64,000 bases of DNA, taken from a virus. Lineage: Duplodnaviria > Heunggongvirae > Uroviricota > Caudoviricetes > Crassvirales. The position numbers were made by a program, and so were the translations under genes. Below, in pieces: positions 24,233-44,260 of this stretch; position 1 is the stretch's first letter; the number at the start of each line of letters is the position of its first letter. Under the pieces are notes generated by a model. That model had not been told where the DNA came from and made no database searches. It saw nothing but the letters and a program-made list of their open reading frames with translations. The stretch is from IMG/VR virus record IMGVR_UViG_3300022894_000002, positions 36,490 through 100,489 of that record. The stretch is one strand, 5' to 3'.

Positions 24233-24306
24233 GTTGAATTAGCTCAATTGGTAGAGTATAAGACTACGTCATCTTAAAGTTATAGGTTCGAGTCCTATAT
24301 TCAACA
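24233..24306 (+). tRNA. tRNA, Arg(ACG)-like, with an apparent 8-nt anticodon loop
   Basis: Manual cloverleaf fold. Acceptor gttgaat/attcaac is 7/7. D-arm gctc-aattggta-gagt. Anticodon stem taaga/tctta is 5/5 with the loop cuacguca (8 nt). Variable loop aagtt. T-arm atagg-ttcgagt-cctat is 5/5. Discriminator a. Confidence 0.6.
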
Positions 24307-24332
24307 CAATTATTAACTAATAAATAAATAAA

Positions 24333-24587
24333 ATGAAAAAAAAATCTTTAATTATATTAATATTTATTATTATTTATCTTATATCAGTAAATTTAAGCTT
24401 TAATTTCATACAAAAAGCTTATTATGATAAAGATGGAAGATGGAATTCATTAAAACCTACTTCTTTAGATATATTTATAACAATAGCACCTGGATATAAC
24501 ACTATAATAGGTATTAATTATTTATTAGGAAATTGGAAAAATAGAGAATTAAGAAGTTTAAAAATTACAATATTTAAACCTAAATAA
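24333..24587 (+). CDS. Small membrane protein (N-terminal signal / TM segment)
   Basis: MKKKSLIILIFIIIYLISVNLSF... Confidence 0.4.
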   Translation: MKKKSLIILIFIIIYLISVNLSFNFIQKAYYDKDGRWNSLKPTSLDIFITIAPGYNTIIGINYLLGNWKNRELRSLKITIFKPK

Positions 24588-24588
24588 A

Positions 24589-24849
24589 ATGAAAAAACTA
24601 ATATTATTACTAACAATTTGTATATTGGCGAGTTGTGAATCAACTAAATCAGAAGATTATACTGATATTTCTACAAGAGAATTTAACACTTTAAAATCAC
24701 CTGTTATATTAATAGGTAAAGAAAAATCTTTAGGTTGTTATAATATTACAGTAATAGATAGTAATAAGACTATATTATGTATTGGTAATATGTCAATAAT
24801 AGCTAGAACAATAGGTGAAAGTAGAAATATAGGAGATACTTTAAAATAA
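24589..24849 (+). CDS. Putative lipoprotein
   Basis: Signal peptide plus lipobox: MKKLILLLTICILASCEST. Confidence 0.45.
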   Translation: MKKLILLLTICILASCESTKSEDYTDISTREFNTLKSPVILIGKEKSLGCYNITVIDSNKTILCIGNMSIIARTIGESRNIGDTLK

Positions 24850-24854
24850 ACAAT

Positions 24855-25547
24855 ATGTCAATACATAAAGAATGTCAAGTTATAATGCTTGAAACAAAAA
24901 AAAGTAAATTACATTTATGTAATAAATTACTGATAAGCTCTGTAGTAGCTACAGAAGAATCAGCATTATATGATAATATACCTCAACATTTATACATTTT
25001 AAGTGATGAAAAGATAGAAAAAGATGATTGGAAATATTGTAGTAATACAAATCAAATTTTACAAGCGCGCAAATTAGATAAAAATAATATTTGTAAAGAT
25101 TGTAAAAAGATAATAGCAACAACTAATTCTGATTTAAATTATACTCATTGTCAAAGTGAAGAAGAGTCTAATAATAGATGTAAAGAAAGATGTGAGCATT
25201 GTATTGAATATTATAAACCTGTAGATATTATTTATCCTCAAATACCTAACTCATTCATTGAACAATATATTAAATCTTTTAATGAAGGTAAAGCAATTGA
25301 TAAGGTGTTAGTTGAATATGGAGAACACATATTTTCTCATCCTGATAAAAATATTAAAAAAGGTGATTTTGGATTATTTGTCCAAAACAATGAAATAATT
25401 ATCAAACCAATTAAAGATAGTTGGAATAGAAAAGAAATTGAAAAAATAGCTAATTTAGCTTATTGGACAGGTAGTAATGATACAAAAAATAATAAATTCT
25501 TTGGTGATACTTCTTTTGATAGTTGGATTATAAAAATACTAAAATAA
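24855..25547 (+). CDS. Cys-rich (zinc-binding?) protein
   Basis: CKDCKK...C...CKERCEHC clusters. Confidence 0.4.
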   Translation: MSIHKECQVIMLETKKSKLHLCNKLLISSVVATEESALYDNIPQHLYILSDEKIEKDDWKYCSNTNQILQARKLDKNNICKDCKKIIATTNSDLNYTHCQSEEESNNRCKERCEHCIEYYKPVDIIYPQIPNSFIEQYIKSFNEGKAIDKVLVEYGEHIFSHPDKNIKKGDFGLFVQNNEIIIKPIKDSWNRKEIEKIANLAYWTGSNDTKNNKFFGDTSFDSWIIKILK

Positions 25548-41464: not shown

Positions 41465-41558
41465 TGTTAATTAATTTATTAAGAACTTTTATAATAATAG
41501 TAATCTTAATATTAATAGGATATTTAAATAGTAAATCAAGAATTAAAAACAAATTAAA

Positions 41559-42083
41559 ATGAAAAATATAAAATCATCTTGTTGTAATGAAGAAGTTACT
41601 CATTTTATGGATAATAGATATATTTGTAAAAAGTGTAATAGTAAATGCTCTACTTATAATAGAAAAGTTTTTATTAATTTTTTAATAGCTTCAGTTATAA
41701 TTATAATTGCTATTTGTTTATTTTCACAAAATACAAAAGTTAATAATTACAAAATAAACTATAAGAAAGTAGAATTAAAAAAATCAGAAGATATTGAGTT
41801 AAATGATTCATCTATAACAAATGAATTAATAAGATTAGGTTGTATTTTACCTAATGTAGCTTTGGCTCAAATTAAACAAGAAACTGGACATTATAAATCA
41901 AAACTAACTTATACACATAAGAATATAGTTGGTATAATGAAAGGAAATGAATATAAATCATATAATACATATAAAGAATGTTTATCTGATTATGTTAGAA
42001 TACAAAACATGTATTTAAAGCAAATACATAGAAAATTTGCTGAAGATAGTACTTATATTTATAAATTAAAACAAATAAAATGA
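41559..42083 (+). CDS. Membrane-anchored protein with an N-terminal Cys cluster
   Basis: CCNEE...CKKCNSKC followed by a TM helix. Confidence 0.4.
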   Translation: MKNIKSSCCNEEVTHFMDNRYICKKCNSKCSTYNRKVFINFLIASVIIIIAICLFSQNTKVNNYKINYKKVELKKSEDIELNDSSITNELIRLGCILPNVALAQIKQETGHYKSKLTYTHKNIVGIMKGNEYKSYNTYKECLSDYVRIQNMYLKQIHRKFAEDSTYIYKLKQIK

Positions 42084-42850
42084 ATTTAAAAAATCTATTT
42101 AGAAAAGAAGCTATCTTAAATAAAGAAGCTATTATGGAAGAATTGCCTAAAAGTATATCTAAAGCTATTTATCCTAAAGAAGTATTAGCAATACACAATG
42201 AGTTTGAAATAGCATCAGATAAGTTGTTGGAAGAAGCTAATAATATAATTAATAATCAACCCAAAATTAATGAATCTAAAATAAATAGATTATCTAAATT
42301 TGGATTTAATCAAGTTAAAGAAGTTGAAATAGGTAAAAATATAATAAAAGCTTCTGAAATTTCCAAAGAACAGATAGATTTAATTACTTATTATAAAAGA
42401 GAATATCCTTTTAATAAATTTATTACAGAACAACAAGTTAAAGCGATTTGTCAAAAATATAGTTTAGTATTTGGAGGAGTAAATAGATTCAAAGGTTTTG
42501 TTCCTGAAAAGAATCTTAAAGAAATTGAAAATTTTAAATTAAAGGAATCAGAATTTTCTTACTATAGGAGAAATATATATTCAGATAGTTTATATATTAC
42601 AACCAAACAAAATTATATGTCATATAAAAAAGATTATCCTTCAGAATGGATTATGAAAGAAATAGATTTATCAATTTGTGCTCCAATTAAAGATATGGAT
42701 ACTTCAAATATGTATATTACAGATGGTTACAAATTACAGCATATTCCAGATCCAGTTGTATTACAAAAGGTTAAAGGTGGTTTTCTTGTTGTAACTAAGT
42801 GGGGTATAGAGGCTGAAGATCCTATTTTATTAAATGAAATAAATAATTAA
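42080..42850 (+). CDS. Hypothetical protein
   Basis: 256-aa ORF. Confidence 0.4.
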   Translation: MNLKNLFRKEAILNKEAIMEELPKSISKAIYPKEVLAIHNEFEIASDKLLEEANNIINNQPKINESKINRLSKFGFNQVKEVEIGKNIIKASEISKEQIDLITYYKREYPFNKFITEQQVKAICQKYSLVFGGVNRFKGFVPEKNLKEIENFKLKESEFSYYRRNIYSDSLYITTKQNYMSYKKDYPSEWIMKEIDLSICAPIKDMDTSNMYITDGYKLQHIPDPVVLQKVKGGFLVVTKWGIEAEDPILLNEINN

Positions 42851-42860
42851 AACAATTTAA

Positions 42861-43088
42861 ATGGAAAATAAAACTAAAAAAGTAAAAGAAACTAAGACAA
42901 ATCATATATCAGAAGTGTTATATCCCTGGTTATTTATGGCTGATCCATTAACTCAAACTAGATATGCAGTTCATAGAGAAGATTATGTATCATTTAATAA
43001 TGGATTACCAACTAAACATGAAGTACATAAATCTAAAACAATGGGATTAGATGAGTTAGCTGAATATGTTAAATTAAAAGAAAAATAA
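42861..43088 (+). CDS. Hypothetical protein
   Basis: 75-aa ORF. Confidence 0.35.
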   Translation: MENKTKKVKETKTNHISEVLYPWLFMADPLTQTRYAVHREDYVSFNNGLPTKHEVHKSKTMGLDELAEYVKLKEK

Positions 43089-44260
43089 TGAATCCAGTAG
43101 AAATTGTAACAATAAAAAATAAAATACCTTTATTTAAAGGTGATGATCAAGCTAATTCTATAGAACTTATTGAATTAGAAGAAGTTGGAAATATTTTAGT
43201 ATCTCAAAAAGGATTATATGAGATTGGAGATAAAGCTGTATTTATACAACCTGATTATAGTTTACCTGATGTAAGTTTATTTGAGAGCTTTCATAGACCA
43301 GGAGGAGATCCTAAAAAGACTTTATTAGGTTCTAATGGTAGAATTAAGGCTAAGAAATTTAATTTACATACTGGTAATGGAGTTCCGGTTTATTCTTATG
43401 GTATATTATTATCACTAAATGAAGTTCAAGATTATTCTAATAAAGTATCTGGAAATTATGATTTAGAGGGTTTAGATATAACTAAAATTCTAGGAATTAC
43501 TAAGTGGGAAGAACCAGAAGATAAATCAGGTTCTGGAGTTAAAGGAGGACAATCTAGAGTATTTCCAGAAGGAATGTATAGGACTGATGAAGAAAATATT
43601 AATAATATGTGGAATCATATAGATAAACATATTGGTTATCCTATAACTTTAATTGGTACTGAAAAAATAGATGGCTCTAGTATTACTTTATATTATAAAA
43701 ATGGTAAAGCTGGAATAGCTTCTAGAAATTTAGATAAACCATTAACTATTACTAAAATAATTGGTAGAAGAGATAAAACTTTATTAGAAAAAATATTATT
43801 TTGGACTAAACCAGATTTAAATATTTATAAAGAAGTAGAATCTGATAGTGATTTTGTTAGAATTGGTAAACCTTATTTAGATACTTTTGTAAAATATTGT
43901 AAATCTTTAGATATTGATTTAGCATTAAGAGGAGAATTAAATAGACAAGGTTTAAAAGGTTCAGGAAATAAAAATAATCCTTCTGTAAAATTGGAACCTA
44001 ATATTATATTTTATGGTTTAGATTTATATAATTCTACAACTATTAAACTAAATGAAAATAATTTTGATAAATGTATTGATGAATGTGGTTTTAATAGATG
44101 CAAATTAGTATTTAATAAATCATTTAATTCTAAAGAAGAACTATTAAAAGAATGTAATACTTATTTTAAAGATAATTTAATAGAAGGAATAGTTGTTAGA
44201 ACATTAGATAGTAATTTTAGTGCGAAAATTATGAATTTAGAATATGATAGTAAAAAATAA
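43088..44260 (+). CDS. ATP-dependent polynucleotide ligase (RNA-ligase-like covalent nucleotidyltransferase, motif I KxDG)
   Basis: GTEKIDGSSITLYYKNG carries the nucleotidyltransferase motif I lysine in a KIDGS context. This resembles the KEDGSL of T4 RNA ligase 1 more than the DNA-ligase KxDGxR. Confidence 0.5.
   Translation: MNPVEIVTIKNKIPLFKGDDQANSIELIELEEVGNILVSQKGLYEIGDKAVFIQPDYSLPDVSLFESFHRPGGDPKKTLLGSNGRIKAKKFNLHTGNGVPVYSYGILLSLNEVQDYSNKVSGNYDLEGLDITKILGITKWEEPEDKSGSGVKGGQSRVFPEGMYRTDEENINNMWNHIDKHIGYPITLIGTEKIDGSSITLYYKNGKAGIASRNLDKPLTITKIIGRRDKTLLEKILFWTKPDLNIYKEVESDSDFVRIGKPYLDTFVKYCKSLDIDLALRGELNRQGLKGSGNKNNPSVKLEPNIIFYGLDLYNSTTIKLNENNFDKCIDECGFNRCKLVFNKSFNSKEELLKECNTYFKDNLIEGIVVRTLDSNFSAKIMNLEYDSKK

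What the first reader, a model, noticed from the sequence alone, without database searches (positions are those of the whole stretch)
24233..44260. Phage tRNA island populated by aberrant tRNA-like genes and tRNA 3'-end fragments, together with an RNA-ligase-like enzyme and a small NTase: a possible tRNA decoy or repair toolkit
The aberrant elements, in window order:
- 21263..21290: a T-arm/acceptor/CCA fragment without a 5' half.
- 24233: a tRNA with an 8-nt anticodon loop.
- 26493: a tRNA-like gene whose anticodon arm cannot form.
- 37198: the permuted tRNA.
- 37376: a tRNA with a 9-nt or mismatched anticodon loop.
- 37659: a pseudo-tRNA with a 5-nt anticodon loop.

The protein-coding genes, 43088..44260 and 58915..59667 (both outside this span's upper bound for the second), encode a ligase with the RNA-ligase-type KIDGS motif I and a minimal Pol-beta nucleotidyltransferase with a CCA-enzyme-like GS...ALLG...DVD motif.

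Phage T4 counters the host anticodon nuclease PrrC with RNA ligase and Pnk. Phage tRNAs also act against tRNA-targeting defences.

A set of tRNAs with deliberately unusual anticodon loops could be resistant substrates or decoys for host anticodon nucleases. Ligase and NTase could provide repair. This is inference, but the clustering is striking.
Basis: inference. Interest (0 to 1): 0.6.

Follow-up and report, generated by a model that had tools for sequence, protein, structure and literature searches.

The report
Conserved tRNA-mimic RNA beside DUF7873
The "permuted tRNA" and its odd neighbour in this crAss-like phage are two parts of a large structured non-coding RNA that mimics tRNA, lies just after one protein gene of unknown function in dozens of phages and Bacteroidota bacteria, and resembles bacterial Y RNAs but lacks their usual Ro60 partner.

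Summary
The window is from a crAss-like phage (Crass_capsid E 2.6e-128) and has no canonical tRNA. ARAGORN calls only two tRNAs, both with abnormal anticodon loops.

The main result concerns the "permuted tRNA" at 37198. It belongs to a strongly covarying RNA family. A covariance model built without the window copy hits it at 81.8 bits (E 6e-18). In the family alignment 94.8% of cells pair, against 60.8% after shuffling. The element lies 100-425 nt downstream of a DUF7873 gene in 59 of 64 loci. These include cultured Rhizobium and Vibrio phages and Bacteroidota chromosomes.

Its layout (T-arm, closed acceptor stem, D-arm, ends on the anticodon side) is that of the bacterial Y RNA YrlA. Relatives score only 25-42 bits against Rfam YrlA, below threshold. 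No Ro60 gene and no Ro-binding motif accompany it.

The element is embedded in a roughly 380-nt composite RNA locus. This has a 5' domain of hexamer repeats, a conserved hairpin, and then the "9-nt-loop tRNA" at 37377, a tRNA-Leu-like mimic.

The ligase is an Rnl5-type RNA ligase and the nucleotidyltransferase (NTase) belongs to a family conserved on ~95-130 kb, presumably crAss-like, contigs. Both lie in the replication module and are not linked to the RNAs. The other odd tRNAs showed no conservation. The decoy/repair idea remains untested.

The parts
36272..37066 (+). DUF7873 protein gene (264 aa), the conserved partner gene of the RNA locus
   Evidence: Pfam PF25283 E 8.6e-38. More than 630 homologues. 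AF2 model pLDDT 85 with no significant PDB fold match. The RNA element lies downstream on the same strand in 59 of 64 loci.
37073..37159 (+). 5' domain of the composite RNA. Helix P0 (TCACT 37073-77 with AGTGA 37144-48) encloses AGC-Y-U-N-A hexamer repeats and a small hairpin (37114-37131). A further AGCTTTAGG motif follows.
   Evidence: The repeat motif occurs 3.08 times per 150 nt against 0.12 in shuffles, with spacing mostly 6 or 12 nt. In the window's non-coding DNA this is the only cluster. P0 averages 5.4 bp against 3.75 in shuffles, with 36 distinct covarying helices.
37173..37315 (+). Permuted (Y-RNA-like) tRNA mimic with its outer helices. P1b 37173-80 / 37308-15. P1a 37181-88 / 37297-304. 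'Anticodon' stem 37198-202 / 37277-81. T-arm 37208-24. Acceptor 3' strand 37225-31 followed by U-CUA. Spacer to 37250. Acceptor 5' strand 37251-57. D-arm 37260-75. Internal loop 37282-96.
   Evidence: Model R1, built without this copy, scores 81.8 bits, E 5.7e-18 at 37192-37287. Family covariation: 94.8% of cells paired, 21 of 21 pairs with double changes. P1 is 75% paired against 28-39% in slid registers. The MFE fold reproduces these helices, z = -4.3.
37344..37371 (+). Conserved hairpin GTAGGCTC-gcaggatataaa-GAGCCTAC, with an AGGAUAU-type loop
   Evidence: Stem covaries and loop is conserved in L085, L087 and L003. The loop motif is found downstream of the mimic in 44 of 62 loci.
37377..37452 (+). 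Second tRNA mimic. It has a tRNA-Leu-like D-arm and A73. The anticodon arm is non-canonical, with a 9-nt loop AAUAUAGGA. ARAGORN labels it 'tRNA-Tyr(ata)'.
   Evidence: The same 'ata' call and the loop motif UAUAGG recur in L085, L087 and L003. In most of the wider family a tRNA-like gene with an expanded or odd anticodon arm lies about 100-140 nt after the permuted mimic.
35819..36219 (+). Phage tmRNA gene (one-piece), immediately upstream of DUF7873
   Evidence: Rfam RF00023 54.8 bits, gathering score 47. G3:U70 pair and a tag frame ending GCA GAA TTA GTA GCA GCC TAA = AELVAA*. Also directly upstream in relative L085. Not found by ARAGORN.
24233..24307 (+). Otherwise well-formed tRNA with an 8-nt anticodon loop CUACGUCA
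   Evidence: ARAGORN 4-base anticodon. Rfam 62.8 bits. No related tRNA with this loop found in IMG/VR.
26493..26563 (+). tRNA-like gene without an anticodon stem. Possibly a paralogue of 37377, since acceptor and T-arm are similar.
   Evidence: Rfam tRNA 30.9 bits, E 0.007. Sequence. Alignment with 37377. Conservation not tested.
37661..37728 (+). Marginal pseudo-tRNA with a poor acceptor stem and a 5-nt loop
   Evidence: Rfam 27.4 bits, below the gathering score of 29. Not conserved in L085 or L003.
21263..21292 (+). Isolated T-arm plus acceptor 3' strand plus ACCA fragment in the divergent intergenic region
   Evidence: Sequence. Weak model score. The exact 25-mer is absent from 185,579 GTDB genomes, so no matching host tRNA or attB was found.
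43088..44260 (+). Rnl5-family (DraRnl/NgrRnl-like) ATP-dependent RNA ligase, motif I EKIDGSS, next to PolA
   Evidence: PF09414 E 9.9e-8, phrog_968 E 1.6e-23, PDB 5cot E 3e-12, TIGR02306 51.5 bits against a cut-off of 151. No homologue among the candidate ligase-like genes in L085 or L087.
58915..59667 (+). Small Pol-beta-type nucleotidyltransferase in the replication module, from a family found on ~95-130 kb (crAss-like-sized) contigs
   Evidence: PF01909 21.2 bits against a cut-off of 21. More than 150 homologues at 48-70% identity. G23, S24, D35, D37 and D117 are invariant. No PDB, NCBIfam or PADLOC match.

Best explanation
The core of the finding is one conserved genetic module. It consists of the DUF7873 protein gene followed directly, on the same strand, by a composite structured non-coding RNA locus of about 380 nt.

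The RNA has four parts:
1. A 5' domain closed by a covarying helix and filled with AGC-Y-U-N-A hexamer repeats.
2. A circularly permuted tRNA mimic. It has a T-arm, a 7-bp acceptor stem closed by a disposable A/U-rich spacer, a D-arm and an 'anticodon' stem. That stem does not end in a loop. It continues into a long helix formed by the flanks.
3. A hairpin with a conserved AGGAUAU loop.
4. A second, normally ordered tRNA-Leu-like mimic whose anticodon arm is replaced by a non-decoding loop or insert.

The permuted mimic has the architecture of the bacterial Y RNA YrlA. I infer that it works the same way. It would fold into a tRNA-shaped elbow that tRNA enzymes recognise. RNase P would cut at the 5' side of the acceptor 5' strand. 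The 3' strand, almost always followed by U73-C-N-A, would be trimmed and given CCA. The result would be a two-piece tRNA mimic held together by the acceptor, 'anticodon' and outer helices. DUF7873 is inferred to bind the RNA, with the repeats as the obvious candidate site, and to form a ribonucleoprotein (RNP) that acts on tRNA- or ribosome-associated machinery.

Shown here: the structure, its conservation, and its linkage to DUF7873. Inferred: processing, protein binding and the cellular target.

The remaining odd tRNAs (24233, 26493, 37661, 21263) are unconserved tRNA-derived sequences of unknown status. The Rnl5-type ligase and the NTase belong to the replication module and are not demonstrably part of this system.
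For: - A model built from 40 relatives, without the window copy, hits window 37192-37287 at 81.8 bits, E 5.7e-18. It gives no hit in 471 kb of unrelated viral contigs.
- 59 of 64 distinct loci carry the element 100-425 nt (median 119) after the DUF7873 stop codon, on the same strand. In an independent genome collection the figure is 15 of 22.
- Covariation: 94.8% of cells paired against 60.8% shuffled and 33-49% in slid registers. All 21 pairs show double changes.
- The outer helices P1 and P0 covary. The MFE fold of the window RNA gives the same helices, z = -4.3.
- Rfam YrlA matches relatives over the full model: L071 42.3 bits E 5e-6, L060 41.6 bits, L003 37.1 bits.
- N73 is U in 54 of 60 copies and C74 is present in 58 of 60. 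In Rhizobium phages TM30 and TM16 and Vibrio phage K479 the acceptor 3' strand is followed by a full N-CCA. This points to a processed, tRNA-like 3' end.
- M. smegmatis YrlA is cut by RNase P and receives CCA (Chen et al. 2014, PMC4201824).
- The hairpin and second mimic are conserved in close relatives and in most of the family.
- The hexamer repeats are enriched 25-fold.
Against: - No experiment exists. Transcript ends, processing, protein binding and function are all inferred.
- The window copy itself gets no YrlA hit even at E <= 10, and relatives stay below the gathering score of 69.
- The two defining YrlA features, an adjacent Ro60 gene and the GNCGAAN0-1G motif, are absent.
- The DUF7873 fold has no informative structural match, so RNA binding is a guess based on linkage.
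- Lak-B5 and four other loci have DUF7873 without a detectable element nearby.
- P1 support comes from an unrefined MAFFT alignment. A generic longest-helix test was weak, 7.8 against 6.6 bp.
Confidence: 0.6

Rival explanations
1. tRNA decoy and repair toolkit. tRNAs with altered anticodon loops resist or soak up host anticodon nucleases. The RNA ligase and NTase reseal and rebuild cleaved tRNAs.
For: The ligase belongs to an RNA-ligase family, Rnl5. Every tRNA-like gene in the window has a non-canonical anticodon region. Phage RNA ligases and Pol-beta NTases (RlaP, CCA-adding enzymes) are known partners in RNA repair in jumbo phages (PMC7824862). An RNA_ligase-domain protein neighbours the module in 2 of 94 surveyed flanking ORFs.
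Against: The ligase and NTase lie in the replication module, 6 and 22 kb away. No homologue of the ligase was found among the candidate ligase-like genes in the closest relatives, and L087 has a WGR/DNA-ligase-like gene instead. No Pnk, RtcB or phosphoesterase was found in the window. The NTase has no PolyA_pol or RlaP match. The permuted mimic has no anticodon loop. The module also occurs in bacterial chromosomes. The 8-nt-loop tRNA is not conserved.
Confidence: 0.12
2. A new kind of two-piece (permuted) tmRNA-like RNA. After processing, the CCA end is aminoacylated and the RNA enters stalled ribosomes, with DUF7873 playing the SmpB-like role.
For: The gene topology (T-arm and acceptor 3' strand, then spacer, then acceptor 5' strand) matches that of permuted tmRNA genes as I recall them from established knowledge. 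The acceptor 3' strand is followed by an N-C-N-A or N-CCA tail. The spacer is disposable and varies from 13 to 85 nt. Many copies carry GCN-UUA-GCU-UAA (Ala-Leu-Ala-stop) next to the 'anticodon' stem. In the window and in L085 the module lies right after a true tmRNA.
Confidence: 0.1
3. A true permuted tRNA gene of the kind known in Cyanidioschyzon merolae. The transcript would be circularised or ligated, perhaps by the phage RNA ligase, and then opened at the acceptor to give a functional decoding tRNA.
For: The 3' half lies upstream of the 5' half, with perfectly matching acceptor, D, T and anticodon stems. An RNA ligase gene is in the genome.
Against: The flanks do not supply a 7-nt anticodon loop. 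They form conserved helices P1a/P1b with an asymmetric 9/15-nt internal loop. No conserved anticodon exists across the family. The ligase is absent from most loci, and bacterial chromosomal copies exist.
Confidence: 0.04
4. A cis-acting mRNA element. The tRNA-like structures serve as RNase P/Z processing and stabilising signals for the 3' end of the DUF7873 mRNA, as with tRNA punctuation or viral 3' tRNA-like structures. They would have no independent RNP function.
For: The RNA domain starts about 7 nt after the DUF7873 stop codon and is always on the same strand. No convincing separate promoter was found.
Against: About 380 nt of elaborate covarying structure with repeats, plus a second mimic, is far more than 3'-end formation needs. 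The second mimic varies by 4-70-nt structured inserts while keeping conserved motifs.
Confidence: 0.14

Closest known systems
YrlA, the bacterial Y RNA-like tRNA mimic (Rfam RF02553; Chen et al. 2014, RNA 20:1715)
   Same: Same permuted tRNA-like layout: variable region, T-arm, closed acceptor-like stem, D-arm, with the RNA ends on the anticodon side forming a long stem. D- and T-loop nucleotides are conserved. Found in both bacteria and phages. Relatives give full-length sub-threshold matches to the Rfam model. The N-CCA or N-C-N-A tail is compatible with the RNase P cleavage and CCA addition shown for M. smegmatis YrlA.
   Different: No Ro60/TROVE gene nearby and no GNCGAAN0-1G motif. A DUF7873 gene is always upstream instead. 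There is an extra 5' repeat domain, a conserved hairpin and a second tRNA-Leu-like mimic. Scores are below the Rfam gathering threshold, and the window copy is not detected at all.
Two-piece (circularly permuted) tmRNA genes of alpha-proteobacteria, some beta-proteobacteria and cyanobacteria
   Same: The 3' part of the tRNA-like domain is encoded before the 5' part, with a removable intervening spacer and a CCA-type end after the acceptor 3' strand.
   Different: No G3:U70 pair, no pseudoknots and no credible tag reading frame. Here the break would lie on the other side of the 'message' region. No Rfam tmRNA-clan hit.
Permuted tRNA genes of Cyanidioschyzon merolae, some green algae and archaea
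   Same: The 3' half is encoded upstream of the 5' half.
   Different: Those yield complete decoding tRNAs through a circular intermediate made by the splicing endonuclease. Here there is no anticodon loop and no bulge-helix-bulge junction. The flanks form a conserved long helix.
Rnl5 RNA ligases (Deinococcus radiodurans DraRnl, Naegleria gruberi NgrRnl)
   Same: The window protein 43088..44260 matches both the N-terminal domain and the nucleotidyltransferase domain with motif I KxDG.
   Different: It scores far below the equivalog cut-off (51.5 against 151 bits). It sits beside PolA in a replication module, with no other ligase detected in the window, so a replication role cannot be excluded.

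Membership tests
YrlA / bacterial Y RNA (Rfam RF02553) | tRNA-like domain in the order T-arm, closed acceptor-like stem, D-arm, with the RNA ends at the anticodon side | tested here: met
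   Direct reading. Model R1 81.8 bits. Covariation in all four helices.
YrlA / bacterial Y RNA (Rfam RF02553) | Score at or above the Rfam gathering threshold (69 bits) | tested here: not met
   The window has no hit at E <= 10. Relatives score 25.6-42.3 bits.
YrlA / bacterial Y RNA (Rfam RF02553) | Encoded within about 4 kb of, and on the same strand as, a Ro60/Rsr (TROVE) gene | tested here: not met
   No TROVE hit among window ORFs, including all of 340 aa or more. No recurrent TROVE among 94 flanking ORFs of the family. The rest of the 103-kb contig was not seen.
YrlA / bacterial Y RNA (Rfam RF02553) | GNCGAAN0-1G (Ro-binding) motif near the 5' end | tested here: not met
   Present in 3 of 56 copies (0.84 expected by chance). 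Absent from the window copy.
YrlA / bacterial Y RNA (Rfam RF02553) | Substrate of RNase P, the CCA-adding enzyme and tRNA-modifying enzymes | not testable with these tools
   Indirect only: U73-C-N-A or N-CCA after the acceptor 3' strand.
Two-piece tmRNA | G3:U70 alanine identity pair in the acceptor stem | tested here: not met
   Pair 3:70 is G:C or C:G in 49 of 65 rows and G:U in about 2. The window has C3:G70.
Two-piece tmRNA | Tag reading frame with a resume codon, plus pseudoknots | tested here: inconclusive
   An Ala-Leu-Ala-stop-like string occurs in about half of the copies. It is one unit of a repeated hexamer RNA motif, with stops at variable positions. No pseudoknots were identified.
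Permuted tRNA gene (C. merolae type) | The flanks complete a 7-nt anticodon loop through a bulge-helix-bulge junction, giving a decoding tRNA | tested here: not met
   The flanks form helices P1a and P1b with a 9/15-nt internal loop.
Canonical tRNA (for 24233, 37377, 26493, 37661) | Cloverleaf with a 5-bp anticodon stem and a 7-nt loop (U33, purine 37) | tested here: not met
   24233 has an 8-nt loop. 37377 has a 9-nt loop or an A.A mismatch. 26493 has no anticodon stem. 37661 has a 5-nt loop and a poor acceptor stem.
tmRNA (35819..36219) | Rfam gathering score, G3:U70 pair, and a tag ending in a hydrophobic xLxAA-type tail | tested here: met
   54.8 bits against 47. GGGCCTA/TAGGTCC gives G3.U70, and the tag ends AELVAA*. 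ARAGORN does not call it.
Rnl5 RNA ligase (DraRnl/NgrRnl) | N-terminal OB-like domain plus nucleotidyltransferase domain with motif I KxDG | tested here: met
   TIGR02306 aligns residues 26-206 to profile positions 18-179. 5cot aligns residues 127-263. EKIDGSS is present. The equivalog cut-off is not reached (51.5 against 151 bits).
CCA-adding enzyme or RlaP (for the NTase 58915..59667) | PolyA_pol head domain, or a match to the RlaP family | tested here: not met
   Only PF01909 at the cut-off (21.2 against 21 bits). No NCBIfam, PADLOC or PDB sequence hit, even with a 30-sequence profile. The structure test failed: the single-sequence model has pLDDT 47.

The most novel reading that the evidence does not exclude
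DUF7873 and this composite RNA form a previously unrecognised, widespread ribonucleoprotein of Bacteroidota and of many phage lineages (crAss-like, large and huge phages, Rhizobium and Vibrio phages). It would be a Ro60-independent counterpart of the Y RNA system. A permuted tRNA mimic is processed by RNase P and the CCA enzyme into a two-piece, possibly aminoacylatable molecule, paired with a second tRNA-Leu mimic. Together they would engage tRNA-handling enzymes or the ribosome during infection.
Probability: 0.4. Interest if true: 0.85.

Novelty: new variant of a known kind. Interest (0 to 1): 0.7.

Why it matters
Y RNAs that mimic tRNA have so far been defined by their partnership with Ro60. 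Here the same unusual RNA layout recurs in at least 59 independent loci with a different, uncharacterised protein (DUF7873) and with extra RNA domains. The loci span environmental phages, cultured phages and a culturable bacterium.

This gives DUF7873 a concrete functional lead. It adds a large structured RNA family that Rfam 15 does not capture. It also explains why tRNA finders report 'tRNA-Tyr(ata)', 'undetermined' or intron-bearing tRNAs in these genomes, calls that would otherwise be taken for suppressor or decoding tRNAs.

Testable systems exist: Rhizobium phages RHph_TM30 and RHph_TM16, Vibrio phage K479, and Xanthocytophaga flavus NT2B1. The function of tRNA mimicry in Y-like RNAs can therefore be approached by experiment.

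Tried and rejected
- Megablast of 20 kb against 50,697 phage records found no match.
- Lak megaphage context: DUF7873 is present, but no permuted element lies within 6 kb.
- An NTase profile against PDB sequences gave nothing. The family PF26128 annotated on homologues is absent from the local Pfam copy.
- Search for relatives of the 24-26 kb region: protein 24855..25547 found none in IMG/VR, and an exact tRNA 30-mer found none. The degenerate pattern GGTAGAG-N7-CTACGTCA gave 59 hits, none of them a tRNA.
- attP idea for the 21263 fragment: the exact 25-mer is absent from GTDB species genomes.
- RNAalifold on the wide MAFFT alignment recovered only the T-arm and acceptor stem. A generic longest-helix test for P1 was weak. 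These were replaced by register-controlled counts and an anchored test for P0.
- The 'Ala-Leu-Ala-stop' mini-tag reading was rejected. The string is one unit of a hexamer repeat that often carries UGA or UAA.
- Similarity to RNase P, SRP or box C/D motifs was considered from memory only, and no Rfam support was found.
- GOLLD, ROOL and HEARO gave no Rfam hits.
- Literature searches for DUF7873, permuted tRNA in phages, Y RNA in phages, and crAss tmRNA or tRNA-like elements found no description of this module.

Full report
CONTEXT. The window is very AT-rich (22-32% GC). Gene orientation and GC skew switch at about 19-21 kb. It encodes a crAss-type major capsid protein (PF23898, E 2.6e-128), a portal and TerL on the minus strand. 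On the plus strand it carries a replication module: PolA, helicases, a DnaB-like protein, AAA_24, a DnaG zinc ribbon, a MoxR ATPase, PrimPol and FEN. Its own contig is 103.5 kb. It has no close relative among 50,697 deposited phages. It is therefore an uncultured crAss-like phage.

CHECK OF THE OBSERVATION. ARAGORN finds only two tRNA genes in 64 kb, and both are abnormal. The one at 24233..24307 has a four-base anticodon, that is an 8-nt loop CUACGUCA. The one at 37377..37452 is called 'tRNA-Tyr(ata)', which needs an A.A mismatch or else a 9-nt loop. Rfam's tRNA model scores 24233 at 62.8 bits, 26493 at 30.9 bits with no anticodon stem, and 37661 at 27.4 bits, below threshold. The fragment at 21263 (T-arm, acceptor 3' strand, ACCA) is present but statistically weak. 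A genuine tmRNA at 35819..36219 is not listed in this finding. It scores 54.8 bits against a gathering score of 47, has the G3:U70 pair, and its tag ends AELVAA. There is no canonical tRNA in the window, so 'tRNA island' is a misnomer.

THE PERMUTED tRNA IS REAL AND CONSERVED. Read directly, 37198..37281 gives this order: anticodon-stem 3' strand, variable region, T-arm, acceptor 3' strand, U-CUA, an 18-nt A/U spacer, acceptor 5' strand, D-arm, anticodon-stem 5' strand. The upstream gene (36272..37066) is a DUF7873 protein with more than 630 homologues. I fetched 79 metagenomic loci around homologues, one IMG/VR contig, three cultured phages and 22 genome contigs. A simple structural scan found the same permuted arrangement downstream of the gene in nearly all loci with enough flank, with every stem different in sequence.

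A covariance model built from 40 relatives, without the window copy, gives these results:
- It hits the window at 37192..37287 with 81.8 bits, E 5.7e-18.
- It finds the element in 59 of 64 distinct loci, 100-425 nt (median 119) after the DUF7873 stop codon and on the same strand.
- It finds the element in 15 of 22 loci from the genome collection.
- It finds nothing in 471 kb of unrelated viral contigs.

On the model alignment 94.8% of cells pair, against 60.8% in shuffles and 33-49% in slid registers. All 21 pairs show changes on both sides.

WHAT IT RESEMBLES. Rfam's YrlA family (bacterial Y RNA-like tRNA mimics) matches the relatives over the whole model but below threshold: 42.3, 41.6 and 37.1 bits against a gathering score of 69. 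The window copy is not detected at all. Chen et al. 2014 (PMC4201824) define YrlA by four things:
- the T-arm, closed acceptor-like stem, D-arm layout;
- location within about 4 kb of a Ro60 gene on the same strand;
- a GNCGAAN0-1G motif;
- recognition by tRNA enzymes, with the M. smegmatis RNA cut by RNase P and given CCA.

Here the layout is met. No TROVE protein is found in the window or recurrently among 94 neighbouring ORFs of the family. The motif is absent (3 of 56 copies). The element therefore works like a YrlA-type mimic but is not a member of that family as defined.

A 3' feature supports tRNA-like processing. The acceptor 3' strand is followed by U73 in 54 of 60 copies and by C74 in 58 of 60. 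In Rhizobium phages RHph_TM30 and TM16 and Vibrio phage K479 it is followed by a full N-CCA. The spacer that closes the acceptor stem is A/U-rich and ranges from 13 to 85 nt. This is what one expects if it is removed.

THE RNA IS LARGER THAN THE MIMIC. The flanks of the 'anticodon' stem pair again. In the window these helices are P1a 37181-88/37297-304 and P1b 37173-80/37308-15. In the family, P1 is 75% paired against 28-39% in slid registers. The MFE fold of window 37068..37375 reproduces the P1 helices, the mimic's stems and the downstream hairpin, but pairs the 5' domain differently from P0 (z = -4.3).

Upstream, starting about 7 nt after the DUF7873 stop codon, a domain closed by a covarying helix P0 (window TCACT/AGTGA) holds AGC-Y-U-N-A hexamer repeats. 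P0 takes 36 distinct sequences among 43 loci and averages 5.4 bp against 3.75 in shuffles. The repeats occur 3.08 times per 150 nt against 0.12 in shuffles, and their spacing is mostly 6 or 12 nt. In the window's non-coding DNA this cluster is unique.

Downstream comes a G/C-rich hairpin with a conserved AGGAUAU-type loop (window 37344..37371). It is found in 44 of 62 loci. After it comes a second, normally ordered tRNA mimic with a tRNA-Leu-type D-arm and A73. Its anticodon arm is a non-decoding loop, or a structured insert of 4 to about 70 nt. The window's '9-nt-loop tRNA' at 37377 is this element. Its loop motif UAUAGG and the spurious 'ata' anticodon call recur in the closest relatives L085, L087 and L003.

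DISTRIBUTION. The module occurs in crAss-like contigs of about 100 kb, in contigs of 200-640 kb, in cultured Rhizobium and Vibrio phages inside their tRNA regions, and in Bacteroidota genomes. In Bacteroidota it is flanked by housekeeping genes (alpha-amylase, GH65, RsmE, PanE, an exosortase). One example is the isolate Xanthocytophaga flavus NT2B1. It is therefore a cellular module that phages also carry, as is true of Ro60/Y RNA. The DUF7873 model is confident (pLDDT 85) but has no informative structural neighbour.

THE ENZYMES. The 390-aa ligase is an Rnl5-type RNA ligase (PF09414; phrog_968; NgrRnl 5cot E 3e-12; TIGR02306 over the N-terminal domain and motif I). However, the gene lies next to PolA, no other ligase was detected in the window, and no homologue was found among the candidate ligase-like genes near the module in L085 or L087. 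L087 has a WGR/DNA-ligase-like gene instead.

The 250-aa NTase belongs to a family of more than 150 proteins on contigs of about 95-130 kb, presumably crAss-like, with invariant G23, S24, D35, D37 and D117. It shows no sequence link to CCA-adding enzymes, RlaP or any solved structure. The fold test could not be done. No Pnk, RtcB or phosphoesterase was seen in the window.

THE OTHER ODD tRNAs. No relative with the 8-nt loop of 24233 was found. The element at 37661 is not conserved in close relatives. The element at 26493 resembles 37377 in its acceptor and T-arm and may be a paralogue. The 21263 fragment matches no host tRNA in GTDB species genomes. Their status, whether functional variants or decaying genes, is open.

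MECHANISM AND RIVALS. The best-supported reading is a DUF7873-associated, YrlA-like tRNA-mimic RNP. Structure, conservation and linkage are shown. RNase P/CCA processing into a two-piece mimic, DUF7873 binding (perhaps to the repeats) and the target (tRNA enzymes or the ribosome) are inferred. The rivals are:
- a novel permuted tmRNA-like rescuer (no G3:U70, and the 'tag' is a repeat unit);
- a true permuted decoding tRNA (no anticodon loop);
- a purely cis-acting mRNA 3'-end element.

NOVELTY. Rfam 15 has no family that captures the locus. Full-text searches found no description of DUF7873 or of such phage RNAs. I rate it a new variant of a known kind: tRNA-mimicking Y-like RNAs with a new protein partner and new domains.

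Noticed in passing
window 35819..36219 (+): A one-piece tmRNA gene in a crAss-like phage. It has the G3:U70 pair and an unusually long open tag frame (up to about 42 codons) ending AELVAA*. Rfam finds it, but ARAGORN does not. A tmRNA also lies directly upstream of DUF7873 in relative L085, and 9 kb upstream in L087.
   Followed up: partly
L155 (Xanthocytophaga flavus NT2B1, NZ_JASJOR010000003.1 142463-146245); L008, L016, L157: The DUF7873 + tRNA-mimic RNA module also sits in Bacteroidota chromosomes between housekeeping genes (alpha-amylase, GH65, RsmE, PanE, exosortase). It is therefore not phage-specific.
   Followed up: partly
L012, L023, L024, L026, L053 etc., downstream of the permuted mimic: In 'long-form' loci the second tRNA mimic carries a 55-70-nt insert with the motifs AUAUCCUUC and CAUCCUAGAUAG. 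The first is the exact complement of the preceding hairpin loop GAAGGAUAU, which suggests a kissing interaction. The window's short form has UAUAGGA in that loop instead.
   Followed up: no
window 37232..37235, 24307.., 26563.., 36216.., 37452..: Every tRNA-like gene in the window, tmRNA included, is followed by N73-C-N-A (UCUA, ACAA, ACAU, ACUA, ACAA) and not by CCA. The same pattern holds across the RNA family.
   Followed up: partly
window 37258..37276; L005, L030, L046: A subfamily of the mimic, which includes the window copy, has CA-GUUUGGUKGGCGAAAC in place of UA-GCUCAGUUGGUAGAGC. That puts C8/G14 where tRNAs have the U8-A14 tertiary pair.
   Followed up: no
window 25548..26492: A non-coding gap of about 950 nt with GC-richer patches lies directly upstream of the tRNA-like gene at 26493. 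It has no Rfam hit and could hold another structured RNA.
   Followed up: no
window 32667..35219 and 46498..48138: Two large ORFs (850 and 546 aa) with no family assignment share near-identical segments (for example EITFDQFKKYVLKED and EITFEQFKKYVLKED, and the WFIKV / WYIIV motifs). They look like paralogous repeat-domain proteins.
   Followed up: no
window 58107..58847 (-): A lone minus-strand gene with a T5orf172 domain lies inside the plus-strand replication module, right before the NTase. It resembles an inserted homing-endonuclease-like gene.
   Followed up: no
window 37779..37806 and 30360..30409: Perfect palindromic hairpins flanked by T/A runs look like bidirectional terminators. The second was reported as a spurious MIR405 hit on both strands.
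   Followed up: no
L001 5120..5160: In IMG/VR contig L001 a second possible acceptor 5' strand (AGCGCGT) lies upstream of the T-arm. It could form an alternative mini-helix. It is not seen in the window.
   Followed up: no
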